Origin: the human T2T-CHM13v2.0 reference genome, Homo sapiens
Assembly: GCF_009914755.1 (NCBI RefSeq)
Contig: NC_060928.1
Direction: 5' to 3' (one strand)
DNA length: 64,000 nucleotides
Positions within the stretch are counted from its first letter, which is position 1, and each line of letters begins with the position of its first letter. Below the pieces are notes generated by a model. That model did not search any database and was not told the DNA's origin. It was given only the letters and a program-made list of their open reading frames with translations. Made by a program: the position numbers and the translations under genes. This document shows, piece by piece, positions 24,696-43,530 of this stretch.

Positions 24696-26416
24696 AAAGT
24701 GTTTTTCATTAAAAATTTTCCTCGCAAGTGGAAAACATGATATAGGAAGAGAAAACACTTCTACGGCCAGAATGTTAGACAATGTTACTTATTCTTGAAA
24801 TTAATTCTTTTGAGCCATGTTCCTCAGAATGATGTGATCTTAACATGAACACAGGAATAGCCTCACGGTAAAGAAGTCTGCTATGAATGATTGTTTTAGA
24901 GCTCTTGAAACTTCCAGGTTCCTGGAGACAAGGGCTTATCATAAAATAGCTCATATCAAGGTTGAAAATATGAGAAATAATTAGTAGTAATATATTGTAA
25001 TCTCGCAGTCTGTTTCTAACCTGTCAGATGCACAAGTAGAATGATCATTCAGAGTATCCTTTAGTTGAATGTTAATCTTCCCCTAAAAAAGAAAATAGAG
25101 TGACTATCTTTTCCCATCATACACACATGAGTATTGTATATAATCAAAGTGCTTTTCCACTCTCTGGAAAACACAGTACCCATGTAAAGTGTATCAACAC
25201 TGGAAACAAAACAGTTGGACTTATAATATTGTGAGCTCTCTGAAACCAGAAGCATTCGGCAGGAGCTGGAGTTTCAAATGCTAAAACAGAAATATAAAAT
25301 CTTCCTGAGACAGAAGGATAAACTTCCAGATTTCTTCAAATCTCAGCTTGAAATTTTTAATTGCTATGTTTAGATTTTCTGAAAACCATTCTGTGAATTA
25401 TTATTGTTTGATAACTGAAGGTTGATGTCCTTGCTTAGGTACACAGCAGCCCACCTTTATTTTTTAACAAATCTCCTTTCTTTCTTCTAGTCCCAACTCC
25501 TCAAAACACTGACTACTACTTACTCAAACCAGGGGCTGATAAAACTAGTTAACTTTCCCCTCAATACCTAGCATGCTGTAAGCAACTGGATAAAACCTAA
25601 TTACCTACCTCATAAGTGAAACTTTTAAATCTATTTGTGCACTTCCAGTGTATCAGGCAGTTCATCCACGGAAGGTTAAAGAAATACTGAGAAACACTAA
25701 TAAAACTTAAGAAGAAAGCATTCTTTGCTTTCATTGAGCTGGGAGGAAACTAGAAGTCTTCTAGTCCCACCCCTCCATGCTAGTAATAAGGAAACTAAGT
25801 TGCACAACACCACCCAGCTTGTTAAAGGCAGAGCTGAAACAAGAACCTGACATCCAATCCGGAGTTCAGTTTTCACTAACATATGCACCTTGACTTCGCT
25901 TGAATTTCCTCCTTTTGATTGACAAAGAGTGAAAGTACTGGTGGCCTAATTTTATAAGAAACCACTGAAAATTCTTGAGAAAACTGGTTTACTGGTTCAC
26001 AATTGACAGATTTAATTCAAGGGGGAGAAGAAAAGATGCTTTAAAGCACAGCAATTACTGGACTAACACACAGCTGGGCACATTCATGGGGACACACGAG
26101 TGCAGGAGATCACTGAGGGAGAAAGTACAGGAAAAAAATAATAAACAGCCTCTGCTTAACCATGGGAAAAGCCCATATTTACAGAGTGGGAGGAGGGTGA
26201 ATAACATTAATTGCCACTCTGGGCTTCTTCCCCAAAGTACTCTAGGACTGGTTTTTCAAGAGTAAAGAAAGGGACTAGACAAGTTAAAACTGCCTGCGGC
26301 ACATTTTCTTGTTATACAGATATAAACACACACGTGATTTGTGCCTTGGCCTCACACCCTGCTCACTGCAGACTAGTTCCTGGTCCCTGGTCTCCATTCA
26401 AAGAACACAGACCACG

Positions 26417-32100: not shown

Positions 32101-33682
32101 GATTATTCTCACATCCAAGTCACTGCACTTGTCAAATATTGCTCTGTCTACCTAGAGCACTCACAGTCACTCCCTCTTTTAACACTAAAGTCTACAGTTT
32201 CTTCAACAATCAGCTTAGTTATTCTACAGGAAGCCTTTACTCCCACCTCTCTTACATTCTCAGTTAAGATCTGGTAGATACACATACAGGGAACACAGAG
32301 AAAGCACATGTCAGCTTTATCAGTCTGTTTACTTCAGACTCTCTCATTACCCTGAGCTTTATGAGAGCAAGATGGTAAAGAACAATAAAACAACAAACAA
32401 ACAACAACAACAAAAACCAATAGAAAATGATTCATAAAGAAGCTAGTATCTGGTTTATAGTAAAATGACTGGAATTTATATTACCAACAAGTCTTTGAAA
32501 ATGGTAGGGTGTCTATAAAATCTCCAAGAAACCAATCTTCTTAAAAGCAAACTCCCAAAACAATAATGAAAGGAAAACAAAGCTTTGTTTACACAAATAT
32601 CCGAAATTTCATTACCTGAAATTTATTATAAACAGACTTCCAGAAAAGATGGTGGTATGGTAGCAGATATCCAAAATCCTTCCTAGAAACTAAGCCAAAT
32701 CCCAGAGGAAAAATAAGAATAGAGAAAATTCTGCAAAGTTCACATTGGTTGAAGTCCAGTGGTAAATAATGTATCTACTCTAGGTAAGCAAAAACTTTTT
32801 TTTTACATTAGATAACTACCAGAGTCATTAGGAAGCTGAATAAACAAATGCCAAACTAAGTTTTCAGATATGACTGAAAACCACACTGAGCTATGAATAA
32901 AACTGCTGCTCTATAATCGGAAACCTATCTGCAAAACTTGACAGCCACCACCCCATGATCAGGAAACAACCACCAAATTGGGTATTCAGGATAGCATTTG
33001 CCAGCAGAACCAGAAGAATGACCTGTACCTCACTTCTTTCGTTCAAATCTTATGCAAGTGCATTTGAATGGTGAACATGAATCATATTTAGTCCCCTAAC
33101 TTAGAGATTCAAGGAATTAGTGTTCTGTTTTCCAGCTCTTCCATGCAGAAAGACACACTAGAAATAAATTAAAAAATAATAAAACATCAGTACATCAGAT
33201 CATTCACACCATGTGGATGCCTCCTCAACAAGGCATAGTAAAAGCCAGAGGGGATTTTCACCTAGGAATAATGCAGATGACATTAGTTGGGAGGATCTAG
33301 TCAGGAGCATACCCATGATACTCCTTCCCCAAGAGTAGTAAAGGAATATGGGAAAGAACAAGAACAAAACACACACACCCCTCTAAAGTAGAAGGGACCA
33401 GGGGTAGAGATGAGGTTTGTACCATTCAACTTGGTATTCTATCACCAGAACATACAAGGGCTATGCTACCTTATTAAGAATCCTGGCCATACCAAATGGA
33501 AAACCTGCAGTAAAATGTTTTCTGATCTGGCTTATAATTTATGTGGCAAACTTGTCCCTACTGGAAGTACACTCTCCTAGAGTATAAAAGCATTCTACAT
33601 TCCTACCAACAATGTAGGTCTGGCCCTGGTGACATTATATACCTGGAATATAATAAATATGAATGCTAATACATATTAGCAT

Positions 33683-33766
33683 AGCACATACACTAAAATT
33701 AGAATGACACAGAGATTAGCATGGCTCTTCTGCAAGGATGACGCACAAATTCGTGAAGTGCCCTAT
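33683..33766 (+). pseudogene. RNU6: U6 snRNA pseudogene, 5'-truncated
   Basis: agcacatacactaaaattagaatgacacagagattagcatggctcttctgcaaggatgacgcacaaattcgtgaag aligns to U6 from about nt 15 onward. Confidence 0.93.
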
Positions 33767-34157
33767 GAAGAGGGTAGGAGAGACAGTCTTGAGTCCCTGA
33801 GGCCATACATGTCCCATTTCCTGTCAGCAGTTCTATAGTATGGAGAGATAATCTTTGCACTTTGAGGAGGGACAGTGCAGCAACGGGGTGACTTTACATT
33901 TAACTCAATGCTGCATGATCACAGTGGAGAGTAAAGTCATGCTGGGTTTAGCCAGTGTCTGCACATGGAGGGAGCATGTGGATCATACCGAGCCAGAGGG
34001 GAATTGCCTATACTAACAGTTAAAACTTGAGTTATTTGGCAAGCCTCACCACTGTGGGCCAAAGTGCTCCGGGATTTTAGGTAAGCTTGCAAGAAGGTCT
34101 AAGACCCAAGGACTGCAATTCCTAGGCAACTCTTGGTGCTAGGCTGGGATCAGAGCT
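33767..34157 (+). mobile_element. L1M1/L1MA1-3-type 5'UTR fragment
   Basis: agccagaggggaattgcc...ggcaagcctcaccactgtgggccaaagtgctc...caaggactgcaattcctaggcaa. Confidence 0.8.
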
Positions 34158-34407
34158 ACCTCCAACATGGTAACATCTGAGACACAAGGGCACCTGCCTG
34201 AGCTTTGGCAGAGCCCAGAGATAGAAGAGGAAGCAGAGCATGAAGTCAGGGTCCCCTTCTAGAGCTTTTGAGAGAGATTGATGGACCAAGACAGACATCA
34301 AAAGAGGGCTGGCTTCAGCCAAAACGATGAAGCCAGAAGACAAAAATATCCAATGTCTGGAGATGTTTTCCAGGGTAGAAAGTGGGAAGGGGTCTAACAA
34401 TACTCAC

Positions 34408-36320
34408 TTCAGGGCCCTAGGGCATCAAGATAGGGATGTAAAATCTTTGGGAAGAATTGTGGAAAGAGAATCCCAGTAGCTGCTCCCTCCAGAGAGATCC
34501 CACTCCAGCTCAGTGTGGACAATGAGGAGACATCAAAAGAGCCACAGAGGAGCTGGGGGCATCTGAATCCCAGAGACCATGTTGTGAGCCCCTCTATACT
34601 TGTCTCCTGGCCCAGAAGGATAGCAGCTGCAATAAGGGGCTCTCTCTGCTTTACAGTGTGTTTGCCCCTAGGCAAAAGGGGTTGGGGCCTCCTGCAGCCT
34701 CTGCTCTTCCTCCAGGAAGTAGGAACCTTGGAGGTGGGCTGGCAGCATCCCTCCAGAGCTAAGCTGCTTCTGCACAAAGCAGTCCCCAGTGACTGCAGTC
34801 CCGGCCTTACACCCTGGGCATAGAGAAGCACCTTCATATCTCTCACCTGGAAGCACCACTGTTGCCAGGCAATGAAGTCCCAACCTTCTGTATCTCCTGC
34901 TGCAGCTGGACCAGCTCCTTGTCATGGTCATGGTCCTTGATGCTGATGCTGGTGTCTGTAGCCTGGCCTAGGAAAGGCCAGTGGGAGTTCATGTGAGGAT
35001 GTAGAGTTCATATGAGGGGGGTTTCAAGCCTCCAGGCCCCAGGGCTATGTGTTTTGTAAGAAAGGCACTGGTCCCAGCTCTTATCCACACAGGGAACCGT
35101 CTGAGTCTCCAAGTACTCCTATTTCCTTCTTGAGGCAACTCTAGTGCTTCCACAAGACACCACAGTCCACAGATTTGGCCCCCTGGGCTCTCTGGTTGGT
35201 AAAAGAGGAGGGAAAATTGGGCCTGCTCTCAATAAAGAAAATTCATCAAGCCTGCAGTTTTGGAGGACCGAAGTAGACAACCTTTAGAATGTAGATTGTT
35301 ACCTAGCTGTCTCCTGCTAAGCAGGGTAAGTTCCTGGAGAAAAGAAAACATCACCAGCTACTCTCATAAAGAGTTGAAAAAGACCTGTTTGTGTGGCAGG
35401 AGCCTGGCCTGAGGTTTAATCCTGTTTCAACCACATAACAATTCACAGTAGGTCTGTTGAAGGGCGGCTCAAGAGTTCAGCTGCAACCCTGTTTAGCTGT
35501 TTAGCATAATCAACAACTTCTTGAGTTCCTCATTTTCCTTGGAAGCTGCTGCTATCTGCTTCTCAAAGTTTCTCACCACTGTCTAGAACAACTCACTTCT
35601 TTTCTACCAAATGGAAGACAGGTGAGAGAAGAAAATAGTTAAAAAACTAACCCAAGCATGCTAACTCCGTTTTTCCATGCTTTTACTCTCTGGTCTCTCT
35701 CCTTCCTACACACGAGCATCCCCATATTACCTGCTTTGAGTTTTGCCAATTTTACCTGTGGGCTGGCTCCTACGTGACACTTCAGGTTGTTGAGAATGTC
35801 AGCCTGTAGGTGGGAAAAGAGGAGAGGGAAGATGAATGGTGAGGCGCTTGCTCCTGGAAAAGCCTCCCTCAACCCTCCTGATACTCACTTCCCTGGCAAC
35901 TCCTGCATCATCTGCTGTTTCCCGCATTTGCTGCCCCCACTCCTCGAGCTTCTGCAGCTCCCTGTCCTTCTTCTTCGGCTCATAGTCACACTGCACCTTC
36001 TGGCTGATTAACTAGTCTTGCAAACACTTCACCTGGTGGAGTAGAGGGGAGCATTAAACAGGAAAGGCACATGCAGGACCCACAGAGCCGCCAGCAAGGG
36101 GAAATAAATCAGACCCTATGCATGGAAAAAAAGAACAAGACCTTCCACAAACAAGTGAGGCAGTCACAGCCATGGGAGGCAGGCCATCCATCCCTGCCCT
36201 TTAAAGCCAAGGCCTGCTACTCTAACTGTTGCCAAGCTGGGCCCAGGCCACACCACAGCCCCTTGGTCTGTTCCTGGGCCTGTACAGCAGCAATCATTGC
36301 TCACATGTTTGCATCTGGGC
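34408..36320 (-). pseudogene. Unprocessed (intron-containing) pseudogene of an SSX2IP/ADIP-like coiled-coil protein
   Basis: Exons at 36320-~36215, 36032-35889, 35803-35731, 35603-~35447, 35333-35303, 35191-35098, 34967-34847, 34769-34604 and ~34502-34408, most with polypyrimidine-AG acceptors and GT donors. Translations such as KKKDRELQKLEE, ADILN, ENEELKKLL, DHDKELVQLQQEIQ, SYFLEEEQRLQE and AAILLGQE are collinear with SSX2IP. Several stops and frameshifts. Confidence 0.85.
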
Positions 36321-36358: not shown

Positions 36359-36543
36359 TAGTGGTTCTTAAACATTATTGGGCATCAGTATCACCTGGAG
36401 GGCTTGTTAAATCACACATTGCAGAGCTCACAGTTTCCGATTCAGCAGGTCTGAAGCAGGCCCTGGAATCTCCATTTCTAACAAGTACCCAGGTGATGCT
36501 GATGTGCTGATGCAGAGACCACAATTTGAGAACTGCTGCTCTA
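36359..36543. mobile_element. MER5A (hAT-Charlie)
   Basis: gtggttcttaaac...catcagtatcacctggagggcttgttaaa...tttgagaactgctg. Confidence 0.88.
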
Positions 36544-36711
36544 AGCCTTACCCTGGCTACTTTTAGCCTTCCCAACCTCACTCTTCTAGAGTTTGAGCAC
36601 CCTTTAATGGCAGGAAATGACTCTGGGCACTTACCTTCTTTACATGCCCATTTTATCATCCTAAACTTTCGGGGAGTGATAAGACAGATGCCCACCACCC
36701 GCAGAGACCCC

Positions 36712-37795: not shown

Positions 37796-40700
37796 TTTAC
37801 CAGCCCTGGACCACAGGGGAGCCTGCCTCCCTGAAGAACGAGTCCCAGGCCTGGCAACATTCACCACAAACTGACCGAAGAGCCTTTGGGCCTTGAGTGA
37901 ATATCAGTGGTAGCCTGGCAGTACGTTCCATGAACCTGTGGTAGTGGTGGCCACAGGGTAAGGCTCTTCTGCCTGTGAAAAGGGGAGGAAAGAGTAGGAA
38001 GGACTGTCTTGTGGTTTGAGGGCCAGCTCAACCACAGTAGAATAGAACACTGGGCAGATTTCTAAGGTTGTTTTACTCCAGTCCCTGGCTCTCACATGGC
38101 ATCTCTGGATCTACTTGGACCCTGGGGGAACTCACCACCCTGAACGGAAGGGCTCAAGCCTGACTAGCTTTGCCCCCTGCTGATTGTAGAGCTCTAGGGC
38201 CTTGAGTGAACATAGGCAGTAGCCTGGGAGTGGTTACAGTGAACCTTGAGCGAGTCGAGTCCCTGCACAGTCCCAGTGGTGGTGGCCATAGGGTATTGCA
38301 TCATCCCACCTGCAGCTCCAAATGTCTCAGCACAGAGAGACTCCATCTGAGAGAAAATAAGGGAAAAGAACAAGAGTCTCTGCCTGGTACTCAGATAATT
38401 CTTCCAGATCTTATCCAAGACCATCAAAGCGGTACCTCTATGAGTCTGCAGGAACTACAGTGTTACTGGGCCTGAGGTACCCATTAATGCAGATCTGGCT
38501 TAGATCACAACACTCAAGACCTTTTAAATACCTGGAAATCCTTCCCAAGATGGACAAGTGCAAACAAGCCCAGACTGTGAAGACTACAATAAATACCTCA
38601 CTCTCCAATGCCCAGACACAGAAGAACATTCCCAAGTATCAGGACTACCCAAGAAAACATGACCTCACCAAATGAACCAAATAGGGTACTAGGGAGCAAT
38701 CCTGGAGAAACAGAGATATGTGACCTTCAAAGAATTCAAAACAGAGGTAGGTCACCTTCAGAGAATTCAAAATAGCCATCTTGAGGAGACTCAAAGAAAT
38801 TCAAGATAACATAGAGAAGGAATTCAGAATTCTATCAGATAAATTTAATGAAGAGACTGAAATAATTAAAAATAATCAAGCAGAAATTCTGGAGCTGAAA
38901 AATACAAGTGGCTTACTGGAGAATACATCAGAGTCTTTTAATAGCAGAACTGATAAAGCAGAAGAAAGAATCAGAGAGCTTGAAAACAGGCTACTTGAAA
39001 ATACACAGTCGGGGAGACAAACAAAACAAATAAAAAAACAATGATGCCTACCTACAGGATCCAGAAAATAGACTCAAAAGGACAAAATCTACGAGTTATT
39101 GGCTTTAGAGAGGATATAGAGAAAGAGACAGGTATAGAATATTTATTCAAAAGTATAACAGAGAACCTCCCAAACCTAAAAATACCAATATCCAAGTATA
39201 AGAAGATCATAGAACACCAAGCAGATTTAACCCAAAGAAGATTCATTCAAGGCATTTAATAATCAAACTCCCAAAGGTCAAGGATAAAGAAATAATCCTA
39301 ACAGAAGCAAGAGAAAATAAACAAATAATATAAAATGTAGCTCCAATACATCTGGCAGCAGACTTTTCCATGGAAATCTCATAGGCCAGCAGAAAGTAGT
39401 GTGTCATATTTAAAATTATTAAGAAAAAAAAATTTTACCATAGAATAGTATATATGGTGAAAATATTCTTTAAACATGAAGAATAAATAAAATCCTTCCC
39501 AAACAAAAATTGAGGGATTTCATGACCACCAGGCCTGTCCTACACAAAATGCTAAAGGGAGTTTTTCAATCAGAAAGAAAAGGATGTTAATGAGCAATAG
39601 GAAATCAGCTGAAGATACAAAACTCACTGGTAATGGTAAATGCACAGAAAAATACAGAATATTATAACACGTAACTGTGGTGTGTGAAGTACTTTTATCT
39701 TAAGTAGAAAGACGAAATGATGAGCCAAACAAAATAACTACAACAACCTCAAAGGACATAGATGTATTAAAAAAATTAAACAGAAACAAGAAAAGTTAAA
39801 AAGTGGAAGGATGAAGTTAAAGCATATAGTTATTAGTTGTCCTTTTGCTTCTTAGTTTGTTTATGCAAGCAGTTTTGGGTTGTAAGATAGTATTTGCAAG
39901 TCTCATGGTAATCTCAAATCAAAAAACATACCACATATCCACAAAAAATAAAGAGCAAGAAATTAAATCATACCACCAAAGAAAATCACCTTGACTAAAA
40001 GGAAGACAGGAGAGAAGAAAAAAAGGAAGAGAAGAACACAAAACAAGAAACGACACATTGGCAAAAGTAGGTCAGTCCTTATTTATCAATTATAACAATG
40101 AATGTAAATTAACTAAAGTCTCCAATCAAAAGACACCAAATGGTTGAATAGAGAGAAAAATAAGAGCCATTGATCTGTTTCCTACAATAATCACACCTTC
40201 GCCTAAAAAGACACACATAAGCTGAAAATAAAGCAACTGAAAAAGCTACTCCATGCCAATGGAAACCAAAGAAGATCAAGAATTGCTATACTTATATCAG
40301 AAAAAAATAGATTTCAAGACAAAACTGTAAGAAGGGAACAAGCAGTCCTTTGTAAAATGATAAAGAGTTCAATCCAGCAAGAGGATATTGTAACTATATT
40401 GTAATATATAACTGTAAATATATATAATTGTAAATATGTATGCACCCAACACTGCAGTACCCAGATATACAAAGTATATTAGAACGAATGAGAGCGATAG
40501 ATCTCAATACAATAATAGCTGGAGACTTCAATACCACTCTTTGAGCACTGGGCAGATCTTCCAGATGAAAATCAACAAAGAAACATTGGACCGAATCTGC
40601 ACTATACACCAAATGGACCTAATAGAGATTTACAGAACATTTCATCCAATGGCTGCAGAATACACATTCTTTTCCTCAGCACATGGACCATTCTCAAGGA

Positions 40701-42650
40701 CAAGTCGTATGTTAGGTCACAAAACAAGTCTTAAAACATTCAAAAAAATTGAAATTATATCAAGCATCTTCTCTGACCACAGTGGAATAAAACTAGAAGT
40801 CACTAACAAGAGGAATTTGGGAAACTATAAAAACACATGGAAATTAAACAATATGCTCCTGAATAACCCAGGGGGTCAATGAAGGAAATTGAAAAATTTA
40901 TTCAAACAAATGACAACAGAAACACAACATACTAAAACGTACGGGATACAGCAAAAGCAGTACTAAGCAGGAAGTTTATAATTATAAGCACTTAGATCAA
41001 AAACAAAGAAAAACTTGAAATAAAAAACCTAACAATGTGTCTTAAATAACTAGAAAAGCAAGAGCAAACCAACCAAAAATTAGTACCAAAGAAGTAATAA
41101 AGATCAGAACAGAAGTAAATAAAATTGAAATAAAGAAAACAATACAAAAGATCAACAAAACAAAAAGTTGGTTTTTGAAAAGTTAAATAAAATTGACAAA
41201 CCTTTAGCCAGACTAAGTAAAAAAAGAGAAAATACCCAAGTAAAATCAGAGATGAAAAAGACAACATTGCAACCAATACAACAGAAATTCAAAGGGTCAT
41301 TACTTACCACTATGAGCAACTATATGTGAAACTGGAAAATCTAAAAGAAATGGATAAATTCCTAAACAGATACAACCTATGAAGATTAAACAATGAGGAA
41401 ATCCAAAGCTGGAATGAACCAATAACAAGTAATGAGATTGAAGCCATACTAAAAATTATCCCAGCAAAGAAAAGCCTGGAACCCCAATGGCTTCACTGCC
41501 ATCCATTTGAAGAAGAATGAATACTAATCCTACTCAAACTATTCTGAAAAATAGAAGAAGAACACTTCCCAACTCATTCCATAAGGCCAGCATTACCCTG
41601 ATTGATACCAAAATCAGTCAAAGACATATCAAGAAAAGAAAACCACAGGCCAGTATCCCCAATGAACACTGAGGTAGAAATCTTCAACAAAATACTAGCA
41701 AACCAAATTCAACAATACGTTAAAAAGACCATGCGTCATGATGAAGTGGTATTTATCCCAGGGATGCAAGGATAGTTTAACATAGGCAAATCAATCAGTG
41801 TGATACATCATATCAACAGAATGAATGACAAAAAATAAATAATCCTTTGAATTGATGTTGTAAAAGGATTTGATAAAATTCAACATCCCTTCATGATAAA
41901 AAGTATAAACAAACTGGGTATAAAAGGAACACACCTCGACATAATAAAAGCCATATCTGACAGACTCCACAGCTAATATACAAAATGGGGGAAAACTGTA
42001 AACTTTTCCTCAAAGATGTGGAACATGACAAGGATGCTCACTCTTGCCACTATTATTTAACATACTACTAGAAGTCCTCGCTGGAGCAATCAGACAAGAG
42101 AAAGAAATAAGGGGCCTCCAAATTGGAAAGGAAGAAATCAAATTATCCTTCTTTGTGGATGATATAATCTTATATTTGGAAAAAACTAAAGACTTAAGAA
42201 GAGAATTATTGGAATTGATAACCAAATTCAATAAGGTAGCAGGAGAAAAAAATCTACATACAAAAATTAGTAGTATTTCTATATACCAACAGCAAACAGT
42301 TTGAAAAAGTAATCAGGAAGGTAATCCCATTTATGATAGTCACAAATAAAATTAAATACCTAGGAATTAACCAAAGAAATGAAAGGTCTCTACAATGAAA
42401 ACTATAAAACATTGATGCAAGAAATTGAAGAGGACACACCCACAAAAAAAGATATTCGTGTTTATGGATTGGAAAAATCAATGTTATAAAAATGTTCATA
42501 CTTCCCAAAGCAATCTACAGATTCAATGCAATCCTTATCAAAATACCAATGACATTCTTCACAGAAATAGAAAAAACAATCCTAAAGTTTATATAGAACC
42601 ACAAAAGACCCAGTATAGCCACAGCTATCCTAAGCAAAAAGAACAAAATT
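37796..42650 (+). mobile_element. L1MA1-3-like element: partial 5'UTR, decayed ORF1 and ORF2
   Basis: ORF1 remnant (RRLKEIQDNIEKEFRILSDKFN), ORF2 endonuclease (YRTFHP, SDHSGIKLE) and RT ([20 protein letters not shown]). Confidence 0.93.
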
Positions 42651-43530
42651 AAACAAATTTACAAGGAAAAGACAGCCCCATTAAAAAGTAGGCAAAGGAC
42701 ATGAACAGACACTTCCCAACAGAAGACACTCATGCAGCCAACAAACATAAAAAGAAGCTCAACGTCACTGATCCTTAGAGTAATGCAAGTCAAAACCACA
42801 ATGAGATATCATCTCATGCCAGTCAGAATGGCAATTAAAAAGTCAAGAAACAACAGATGCTGACAGGGTTGTGGAGAAAAGGGAACACTTTTACACTGTT
42901 GATGGCAATGTAAATCAGCTCAATATTGTGGAAGAGAGTGTGGTGATTCCTCAAGGATCTAGAAGAAGAAATGCCATTTGACTCAGCAATCCCATTACTG
43001 GGTATATACCCAAAGGAATATAAGTCATCCTATTATAAAGATACATGCATGAGCATGTTCATTGCAGCATTATTCACAATAGCAAAGACATGGAAACAAC
43101 CCAAATGCCCATCAAAGATAGACTGGATAAAGAAAATGTGGTATATATACACCATGAAATACTATGCACTCATAAAAAGGAATGAGATCATGTCCTTTGC
43201 AGGGACATGGATGGAGCTGGAAGCTGTTATCCTCAGCAAACTAACACAGGAACAGAAAACTAAACACTGCATGTTCTCCCTTATAAGTGGAAGCTGAACG
43301 ATGAGAATATATGGACACATAGTAGGGGGAAACAACACTAACTGGGACCTATGTAGGGGGCCAGGGGGAGGAAGAGCATCAGGAAAAATAGCTAATGGGT
43401 GCTTGGCTTAATACCTAGGTGATGGGTTGATTTGTGCAGCAAATCACATGGCACACGTTTACCTATGTAAAAAACCCTGCACATCCTGCACATGTACCCC
43501 AGAACTTAAAATAAAAGTTGAAGAAAAAAA
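42651..43530 (+). mobile_element. 5'-truncated older L1PA 3' end
   Basis: ORF2 C-terminus [15 protein letters not shown]...MFSLISGS; 3'UTR ending cacatgtaccccagaacttaaaataaaagttg plus A-tail. Confidence 0.9.

What the first reader, a model, noticed from the sequence alone, without database searches (positions are those of the whole stretch)
34408..36320. Hidden intron-containing SSX2IP/ADIP paralogue, a candidate unitary pseudogene
Seen: a minus-strand run of exons with short introns (85, 127 and 77 bp where both ends are clear) and canonical splice sites, e.g. ctactccaccag|GTG at 36032, GAA|gtgagt at 35889, cccacctacag|GCT at 35803, CAG|gtgaga at 34847. Translations are collinear with human SSX2IP as I remember it: VKCLQD*LISQKVQCDYEPKKKDRELQKLEE vs [38 protein letters not shown] vs AMDILNYV; ENEELKKLL vs ENAELKKVL; LWKH*SCLKKEI vs IRKQWRILKSHV; ISIKDHDHDKELVQLQQEIQ vs ISRQDHEQETEKLELEIQ; LQGSYFLEEEQRLQE vs LRDCYLLEEKERLKE; AAILLGQE vs AAIRLGLE. 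Known: SSX2IP (ADIP/hMsd1) is a centriolar-satellite, microtubule-anchoring and adherens-junction coiled-coil protein. Inference: the low identity plus retained introns indicates an ancient paralogous gene that died in this lineage, not a retrocopy. The ORF track shows only scrambled pieces of it.
Basis: partly seen in the sequence, partly recalled or inferred. Interest (0 to 1): 0.85.

Follow-up and report, generated by a model that had tools for sequence, protein, structure and literature searches.

The report
Dead human copy of SSX2IP-like gene
This stretch of human chromosome 4 is the decayed, intron-containing remains of an ancient sister gene of SSX2IP that is still annotated as intact in reptiles, platypus, marsupials and a sloth, so it is a gene our lineage lost rather than a copy of SSX2IP.

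Summary
All quoted peptides, splice sites and intron lengths (85, 127, 77 bp) are in the sequence.

Against human SSX2IP itself the similarity is weak exon by exon (best tblastn E 0.011). It is collinear and far above controls: spliced-alignment score 72 against at most 52 in 60 local shuffles and 68 other window tiles.

The decisive result is a separate vertebrate clade of "afadin- and alpha-actinin-binding protein-like" proteins (sawfish, lungfish, axolotl, turtles, squamates, alligator, platypus, marsupials, one sloth). These match the window far better than SSX2IP does: sloth protein 428 against 69-72.

In trees the human read-through is sister to the sloth protein, inside the mammalian part of that clade (SH-aLRT 100 and 99; 99 and 99 with an opossum-guided reading). 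Joining it to SSX2IP proper is rejected (AU p 7.6e-48).

Nine exons (X4-X12, 36320-34145, minus strand) carry 6 in-frame TAG stops, at least 5 frameshifts and 3 lost splice sites. No 5' exons were found.

It is unannotated in the RefSeq table, and five literature searches found no paper describing it. Verdict: a new unitary pseudogene, solid but of moderate interest.

The parts
36226..36320 (-). Relic exon X4 (95 nt). It corresponds to SSX2IP exon 4 and sloth protein aa 35-71. It carries one frameshift and a 5-codon deletion, and the donor position reads tt.
   Evidence: The acceptor cctactccag| sits directly before 36320. tblastn with the sloth protein matches 8 of 10 residues at 36326-36297. 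The spliced alignment matches 9 of 18 at 36282-36229. See also the alignment.
35889..36032 (-). Relic exon X5 (144 nt). It encodes the end of the ADIP domain. There is an in-frame TAG at 36014-36012. The splice sites are canonical: ag acceptor and gtgagt donor.
   Evidence: Sequence and frames. Pfam ADIP matches at E 0.2, profile positions 126-147 of 151. tblastn of SSX2IP aa 179-228 gives E 0.011. The sloth protein matches 25 of 45. The 'like'-clade HMM gives E 0.022.
35731..35803 (-). Relic exon X6 (73 nt). The frame is open. Acceptor cccacctacag|, donor gtaata.
   Evidence: Boundaries and frame. The first 7 of 8 residues are identical to the sloth protein. The exon start lies within one codon of the SSX2IP exon 6 start.
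35422..35603 (-). Relic exon X7 (182 nt). There is a TAG at 35585-35583 and one frameshift near 35510-35503. The donor position reads ga.
   Evidence: The sloth protein matches 21 of 31, then 6 of 17 after the frameshift. The HMM gives E 6.9e-3. Frames.
35098..35191 (-). Relic exon X8 (94 nt). There is a TAG at 35143-35141. It joins X9 in phase 1, as the matching SSX2IP junction does.
   Evidence: The sloth protein matches 19 of 36. One frame reads through the whole exon.
34847..34967 (-). Relic exon X9 (121 nt). It has one frameshift. Acceptor cctttcctag|, donor gtgaga.
   Evidence: The sloth protein matches 22 of 39. The HMM gives E 1.3e-3. Boundaries.
34600..34769 (-). Relic exon X10 (170 nt), the best-preserved exon. 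There is a TAG at 34670-34668 and one frameshift. Acceptor tgctttgtgcag|. It starts at the same residue as SSX2IP exon 10.
   Evidence: The sloth protein matches 36 of 57. The HMM gives E 2e-8. The whole-genome search with the sloth protein has its best hit here, E 9.3e-8.
34408..34520 (-). Relic exon X11 (about 113 nt). It has one frameshift and a TAG at 34419-34417. No ag is left at the acceptor. The donor is gtgagt at 34407-34402.
   Evidence: The sloth protein matches 19 of 36. Frames.
34145..34273 (-). There is a TAG at 34261-34259.
   Evidence: The sloth protein matches 18 of 43. The tail alignment scores 123 against 20 shuffles with mean 55.8 and max 68.
25888..25941 (-). A stretch matching the 3' terminal part of the sloth gene model. 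It shows that the human locus is collinear with the sloth gene over about 10 kb.
   Evidence: tblastn of sloth P0224 aa 513-530 matches 14 of 18, E 1.6e-4. It is placed collinearly.
33673..33772 (+). U6 snRNA pseudogene inserted in the 3' part of the relic locus. It is not part of the gene.
   Evidence: Rfam RF00026, 51.2 bits, E 9.2e-11. It agrees with the RefSeq row RNU6-351P.

Best explanation
The window holds the non-functional remains (a unitary pseudogene) of a second vertebrate ADIP-domain gene, an old sister of SSX2IP.

Shown. This sister gene is annotated automatically as 'afadin- and alpha-actinin-binding protein-like / B-like'. Models exist in a sawfish, lungfish, axolotl, turtles, squamates, alligator, platypus, four marsupials and the two-toed sloth.

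Shown. In human, nine compact exons (X4-X12, 2.2 kb, introns of 77-230 nt) survive on the minus strand. They sit in a roughly 5-kb GC-richer island. They are broken by 6 in-frame TAG stops, at least 5 frameshifts and 3 lost splice sites. The 5' exons cannot be found.

Inferred. The ancestral protein was a coiled-coil protein of the SSX2IP/Msd1 type. SSX2IP is a centriolar-satellite protein that promotes centrosome maturation (abstract of PMC3704989, seen in the listing). The same role for the lost gene is inferred from family membership alone.

Inferred. The human copy has drifted neutrally for tens of millions of years. It most likely does nothing now.
For: Match strength. I scored 153 proteins against 34300-36100(-). 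The sloth 'like' protein scored 428, wallaby 210, platypus 182, Anolis 161 and king cobra 159. SSX2IP proper scored 69-72 and the median was 54.

Sloth alignment. The sloth protein aligns over X4-X12 with 197 of 386 identities.

Independent profile. An HMM built without the sloth protein finds four collinear exons as the only hits under E 0.1 among 4519 ORFs.

Whole-genome search. With the sloth protein there are 7 matches at E<=1. Four are in this window, including the best one. The others are SSX2IP on chr1, its chr3 retrocopy, and a chrX fragment.

Trees.
- The vertebrate family splits into SSX2IP proper (96) and the 'like' clade (98).
- The human relic plus sloth gets 100, inside the mammalian group at 99.
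- An opossum-guided reading gives the same placement, 99 and 99.
- The AU test rejects relic plus SSX2IP (p 7.6e-48).

Decay. The human end branch is 0.84 against 0.14 for the sloth. Disablements and splice sites were read directly.

Other points. The locus is single copy. No protein in a 5.8-billion-protein database shares words with exon X5. There is no RefSeq gene row here (hub annotation).
Against: Pfam ADIP does not reach its cut-off on any relic piece: 12.2 bits against 34.3.

No exon for the N-terminal part was found. HMM hits in the 128 kb upstream were no better than E 2.5. N-terminal spliced alignments did not beat shuffles for any of 5 queries. The relic is therefore partial.

Flanking-gene synteny with the intact orthologues could not be tested. 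One alligator model fuses the 'like' protein to a domain whose human counterpart lies on chr19:6.363 Mb, not on chr4. No relic was found in 60 kb around that chr19 site.

Whether the sloth and other models are functional was not tested. The sloth model lacks the C-terminal motif that marsupials and reptiles share, and its Pfam score (26.3 bits) is below the cut-off.

Transcription of the human relic was not examined.
Confidence: 0.9

Rival explanations
1. The resemblance is chance similarity between low-complexity coiled-coil translations, and there is no gene relic.
For: Single-exon statistics against SSX2IP are weak: the best tblastn E is 0.011 and the others are 4.2-13. Pfam ADIP gives E 0.2. 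An L1 ORF1-like coiled coil on the plus strand at 38.8-39.1 kb scores nearly as well, E 0.28.
Against: Collinear spliced scores lie about 7 sd or more above shuffled, reversed and other-tile controls. The sloth orthologue scores 428. The HMM gives E 2e-8. The tree placement follows the species tree.
Confidence: 0.01
2. It is a decayed duplicate or retrocopy of SSX2IP itself, made within mammals.
For: The human genome does hold an SSX2IP retrocopy on chr3:106.256 Mb that is collinear with 14 exon blocks.
Against: The relic keeps eight introns. It is only about 30% identical to SSX2IP at the protein level, against 51-57% to the sloth 'like' protein. The AU test rejects grouping it with SSX2IP proper, p 7.6e-48.
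Confidence: 0.01
3. The locus is dead as a protein gene, but its exons or its GC-rich island are reused. The reuse could be as a non-coding RNA or as a regulatory element.
For: Several canonical splice sites survive: X5, X6 and X9 on both sides, the X10 acceptor and the X11 donor. The locus is a GC island in an AT-rich, gene-poor region: 0.47-0.52 against 0.32-0.38.
Against: RefSeq lists no transcript or functional element here (hub annotation). The human branch is long and the disablements are many, which fits neutral decay. No expression or conservation data could be consulted.
Confidence: 0.07

Closest known systems
SSX2IP (ADIP / Msd1 family, Pfam PF11559), human chr1
   Same: - Same protein family.
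- Collinear homology from the end of the ADIP domain to the conserved C-terminal block, roughly SSX2IP aa 143-500.
- At least five intron positions shared.
   Different: - A separate clade that split before the sawfish/bony-vertebrate divergence.
- About 30% protein identity.
- The relic's nine exons span 2.2 kb, against roughly 19 kb for the same exons of SSX2IP (exon coordinates).
- The relic is broken, whereas SSX2IP is intact.
'Afadin- and alpha-actinin-binding protein-like / B-like' gene models. Examples: Choloepus didactylus P0224, Ornithorhynchus P0170, Monodelphis P0271, Anolis sagrei P0143.
   Same: These are the orthologues of the relic. It is sister to the sloth protein: 57% identity over 293 columns, SH-aLRT 100. 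It is collinear with the sloth model down to that model's 3' tail.
   Different: Those models have open frames. The human copy has 6 stops, at least 5 frameshifts and no detectable 5' exons. The names are automatic annotations. My searches found no paper on this gene.
Classical human unitary pseudogenes. Examples recalled, not from a call: GULOP, and the vitellogenin relics that lie next to SSX2IP.
   Same: A single-copy, intron-containing relic of a gene that other vertebrates keep.
   Different: The parent is an uncharacterised paralogue. The relic is absent from the RefSeq table given for this window.

Membership tests
ADIP / SSX2IP family (Pfam PF11559) | Match to the Pfam ADIP profile at or above the gathering score (34.3 bits) | tested here: not met
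   Of 9 relic ORF pieces, 1 matched, at 12.2 bits, E 0.2, profile 126-147 of 151. Only the last part of the domain survives. Among the orthologues, opossum (39.9 bits) and Anolis (81.8 bits) pass, while the sloth (26.3 bits) does not.
ADIP / SSX2IP family (Pfam PF11559) | Collinear homology to family members beyond the domain, above controls | tested here: met
   For example, the HMM gives E 2e-8, and 4 of 4 hits under E 0.1 are collinear.
ADIP / SSX2IP family (Pfam PF11559) | Placement inside the family tree | tested here: met
SSX2IP proper (orthologue or recent copy) | Groups with SSX2IP orthologues in a tree | tested here: not met
   The AU test rejects this grouping: dlnL 131.8, p 7.6e-48.
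Unitary pseudogene | Disabling mutations in the coding exons | tested here: met
   Six in-frame TAG stops, at least 5 frameshifts, and 3 splice sites without gt or ag.
Unitary pseudogene | Not processed: introns are retained at ancestral positions | tested here: met
   Eight introns of 77-230 nt. At least five lie at SSX2IP intron positions.
Unitary pseudogene | No intact copy of the same gene elsewhere in the genome | tested here: met
   The whole-genome search with the sloth protein gave 7 matches. Outside the window these are only SSX2IP, its chr3 retrocopy and a broken intronless chrX fragment. The tool scores only the best candidates, so weak copies could be missed.
Unitary pseudogene | Intact orthologue in other species | tested here: met
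   48 proteins at E<=0.001. They include sloth, platypus, 4 marsupial species and many reptiles. These are open gene models only. Their function and selection were not tested.
Unitary pseudogene | Positional orthology (shared flanking genes) | tested here: inconclusive
   The 3' tail of the sloth model maps collinearly to 25941-25888. No other vertebrate genome was available to compare neighbours. The alligator fusion model points to a chr19-type neighbour.

The most novel reading that the evidence does not exclude
The lost gene is an uncharacterised whole-genome-duplication sister of SSX2IP that vertebrates from cartilaginous fishes to marsupials keep. On this reading it moved as genomic DNA, with its short introns and its GC-rich character. 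The move was from a gene-dense neighbourhood, next to the alligator neighbour gene whose human counterpart is on chr19:6.36 Mb, into a gene-poor region of chromosome 4. It then died early in placental evolution, while sloths may still use it. A broken intronless copy on chrX would be a trace of its former germline expression. Placental mammals would then be natural knock-outs of a second centrosome/microtubule-anchoring factor.
Probability: 0.2. Interest if true: 0.65.

Novelty: new member of a known kind. Interest (0 to 1): 0.5.

Why it matters
It adds a well-supported, previously unlisted lost gene to the human catalogue. No gene row covers it in the RefSeq table supplied. The five literature searches turned up no paper describing it.

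It also shows that the ADIP/SSX2IP family has two old vertebrate branches, not one. The second branch has no experimental literature that I could find.

For centrosome and cilium biology this gives a candidate partner or backup of SSX2IP in non-placental vertebrates.

For comparative genomics it gives a datable loss: sloth against human, with a possible retrocopy fossil on chrX.

The matter is of moderate rather than high interest. Unitary pseudogenes are a known class, and the dead copy probably has no present function.

Tried and rejected
- Pfam on single relic ORFs was too weak to decide.
- A whole-genome Pfam ADIP search did not list the window among its 50 matches.
- A whole-genome search with exon X5 found only itself.
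- A word-based protein search with exon X5 found nothing.
- Permissive spliced alignment against SSX2IP ran into noise. It 'aligned' a U6 pseudogene and a palindromic repeat. I therefore discarded its parts outside 36041-34577.
- Long-range spliced alignments of full-length orthologues over 33-64 kb chained noise for the N-terminal exons, and I rejected those parts.
- Candidate 5' exons at 37853-37815 (7 of 13 residues to platypus, with a gtaaaa donor after it) and at 37725-37620 were not above shuffles.
- My first idea that X10-X12 lacked introns, based on an 8-residue match in another frame, was replaced by the sloth-guided reading.
- blastn between the chrX fragment and the chr4 relic found only repeats.
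- The genome search does not accept an alignment for this genome.
From the passages seen, that paper's supplementary figure S2B holds an SSX2IP phylogeny. It may already show the old duplication, and I could not see it.
- One search returned no answer. I repeated it in smaller form.

Full report
**What is in the sequence.** The DNA is single-copy in the genome. According to the list supplied by the hub, it lies outside the masked repeats of 100 bases or more.

**Obtaining SSX2IP for comparison.** The genome is searchable as G000. A Pfam ADIP search located SSX2IP on chr1:84.50-84.51 Mb and a retrocopy on chr3:106.256 Mb. I fetched the chr1 locus. I used the chr3 retrocopy as an exon guide. I then assembled a 614-aa SSX2IP model with its exon boundaries.

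**Is the resemblance to SSX2IP more than chance?** Exon by exon it is weak.
- Pfam ADIP touches only the X5 piece: E 0.2, 12.2 bits against a cut-off of 34.3.
- The best tblastn hit of SSX2IP in the window is aa 179-228 at 36035-35886 with E 0.011. Further collinear minus-strand hits have E 4.2-13.

Taken together the match is strong.
- A spliced protein-to-DNA alignment that I wrote scores 154, 72 and 65 under three penalty sets. Forty shuffles gave maxima of 92, 52 and 45.
- On the core region the score is 72. The reversed protein scores 36. Sixty block-local shuffles reach at most 51. Sixty-eight other tiles of the window on both strands reach at most 52.

**The decisive evidence: a separate orthologous clade.**
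- The large protein database holds vertebrate proteins. A search with SSX2IP exon 3 returned 164 hits, and all 120 listed were SSX2IP orthologues or unnamed entries carrying the Pfam ADIP domain.
- A search with relic exon X5 found no protein sharing words.
- An exhaustive HMMER search with a full-length SSX2IP (Orcinus, P0010) gave 705 hits, of which 150 were listed.
- I scored 153 proteins against the relic: the 150 listed, plus two primate or cetacean SSX2IP and one turtle SSX2IP.
- Five proteins stood far above the rest: P0224 at 428, P0177 at 210, P0170 at 182, P0143 at 161 and P0153 at 159. SSX2IP proper scored 69-72 and the median was 54.
- A named search with P0224 identified these as 'afadin- and alpha-actinin-binding protein-like / B-like / A-like' models. 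The species are Choloepus didactylus (sloth), platypus, Monodelphis, Notamacropus, Sarcophilus, Macrotis, many squamates and turtles, alligator, a sawfish, a lungfish, axolotl and others.
- That search gave 48 proteins at E<=0.001. The sloth is the only placental among them.
- That is weak evidence for loss in other placentals. The search is word-based, length-limited (305-973 aa) and depends on annotation.

**Phylogeny.** I read the relic through with X at each stop and frameshift, inside a script. I aligned it with 43 family members. The tree used 44 rows, 335 columns and IQ-TREE in quick mode with SH-aLRT support.
- The vertebrate family splits into SSX2IP proper (96) and the 'like' clade (98). 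The sawfish is at the base of the 'like' clade.
- Inside the 'like' clade the mammals form a group (99) with the shape platypus, (marsupials, (sloth, human relic)).
- The relic plus sloth pairing has support 100.
- Identity to the sloth protein is 57% over 293 columns.
- The result is not an artefact of using the sloth protein as reading guide. An opossum-guided reading still joins the sloth (99), within mammals (99).
- Forcing the relic into the SSX2IP group costs 131.8 log-likelihood units, p-AU 7.6e-48.
- An HMM of 35 'like' proteins built without the sloth finds four collinear relic ORFs. Their E-values are 2e-8, 1.3e-3, 6.9e-3 and 0.022. They are the only hits under E 0.1 among 4519 ORFs of the window.

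**Anatomy.** Exons X4-X12 lie on the minus strand at these coordinates:

| Exon | Coordinates |
|---|---|
| X4 | 36320-36226 |
| X5 | 36032-35889 |
| X6 | 35803-35731 |
| X7 | 35603-35422 |
| X8 | 35191-35098 |
| X9 | 34967-34847 |
| X10 | 34769-34600 |
| X11 | about 34520-34408 |
| X12 | about 34273-34145 |

- The introns measure 193, 85, 127, 230, 130, 77, 79 and 134 nt.
- At least five intron positions (before X4, X5, X6, X7 and X10) coincide with SSX2IP introns in the alignment. The X8/X9 junction is in phase 1, as it is in SSX2IP.
- There are in-frame stops in X5, X7, X8, X10, X11 and X12, and all six are TAG.
- There are frameshifts in X4, X7, X9, X10 and X11.
- The X4 donor reads tt, the X7 donor reads ga, and the X11 acceptor has no ag.
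- The relic lies in a GC-richer island: 0.42-0.52 at 33.5-38.5 kb against 0.32-0.38 in the flanks.
- The 3' tail of the sloth model matches 25941-25888 (14 of 18 residues). The two loci are therefore collinear over about 10 kb.

**What is missing.** No 5' exon was found.
- tblastn with 12 N-terminal queries gave only noise beyond X4.
- The family HMM gave nothing better than E 2.5 over 128 kb upstream, among 8848 ORFs.
- N-terminal spliced alignments in 36.3-38.7 kb did not beat shuffles for any of 5 queries.
- In the mammalian orthologues the ADIP profile match starts only at profile position 56-58, whereas reptiles match from position 2. The N-terminus is therefore poorly conserved in mammals, and a decayed exon would be hard to see.

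**Age (inference).** The relic's end branch is 0.84 against 0.14 for the sloth after their split. With the opossum guide the values are 0.94 and 0.28. Together with 6 stops and at least 5 frameshifts in about 1.1 kb, this fits neutral drift for tens of millions of years. I cannot place the loss on the placental tree without other genomes.

**An unexplained point.** One alligator model (P0278) fuses the 'like' protein to an AlkB-type 2OG domain. The human counterpart of that domain is on chr19:6,363,135-6,363,827. No relic is detectable in 60 kb around that site (best E 4.7 among 3228 ORFs). The same HMM recovers the chr4 exons as a positive control. There are three possibilities: the alligator model joins unrelated neighbours, the alligator arrangement is derived, or the gene changed neighbourhood before or within mammals. 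The compact, GC-rich build of the relic in an AT-rich, gene-poor region fits the last idea but does not show it.

**Literature.**
- 'SSX2IP' with 'paralog': 27 papers, 15 of them listed. I saw passages of PMC3704989 (two medaka paralogues) and PMC2632621 (SSX2IP as a vitellogenin neighbour).
- 'SSX2IP' with 'unitary pseudogene': 0 papers.
- 'SSX2IP-like', 'SSX2IPL', 'ADIP-like' and the long name: 0 papers.
- 'SSX2IP' with 'pseudogene' and 'placental': 7 papers. None is about this locus, judging by title and abstract.
- 'SSX2IP' with 'ohnolog': 0 papers.
- Passages of PMC10015161 mention gene duplication in the SSX2IP family before the cartilaginous/bony fish split, in a supplementary figure that I could not open. 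The old duplication may therefore already be drawn there. The human relic is not mentioned in the passages I saw.

**Verdict.** This is a new, well-documented unitary pseudogene of an uncharacterised SSX2IP sister gene. It is a new member of a known kind and of moderate interest.

Noticed in passing
G000 chrX:30462615-30462893, + strand (L027:4615-4893): An intronless, broken fragment matches the sloth 'like' protein at aa 314-402 (39 of 89 residues, 3 stops, 2 frameshifts). It runs across two intron positions of the chr4 relic without introns. The spliced score is 96 against 25 shuffles with mean 41.5 and max 51. SSX2IP does not match there. It is probably an old processed pseudogene of the same lost gene. 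It has no blastn similarity to the chr4 relic.
   Followed up: partly
G000 chr3:106255409-106257580 (L015:3409-5580): A processed pseudogene of SSX2IP, collinear with 14 exon blocks of the chr1 gene at 73-90% DNA identity. I used it as an exon guide.
   Followed up: partly
window 33673-33772 (+): A U6 snRNA pseudogene (Rfam 51.2 bits) sits about 370 bp downstream of relic exon X12, inside the old gene's 3' region.
   Followed up: yes
window 38600-43000 (+): A-rich plus-strand stretch (AT skew 0.3-0.39, GC 0.32-0.34). Its translation at 38811-39134 resembles a coiled-coil ORF and gave a spurious SSX2IP hit at E 0.28. It looks like an L1 element bounding the GC island on the 5' side of the relic. 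The name is recalled, not tested.
   Followed up: no
window 36380-36560 (-): A stretch between candidate 5' sequence and X4 looks like a palindromic short repeat element. That judgement is by eye and recall. It was spuriously aligned to SSX2IP aa 88-135 by the permissive alignment.
   Followed up: no
window 36014-36012, 35585-35583, 35143-35141, 34670-34668, 34419-34417, 34261-34259: All six in-frame stops of the relic are TAG. The cause is probably single changes from codons such as CAG, GAG or TGG, but I did not test this.
   Followed up: no
P0278 (alligator model); G000 chr19:6363135-6363827: An alligator gene model joins the 'like' protein to an AlkB-type 2OG-Fe(II) domain. The human counterpart of that domain is on chr19, not chr4. 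No relic was found in 60 kb around the chr19 site.
   Followed up: partly
window 37853-37815 (-): A short open stretch matches platypus N-terminal residues (7 of 13) and is followed by a gtaaaa donor after 37801. It is not above shuffled controls, so it is only a candidate 5' exon.
   Followed up: partly
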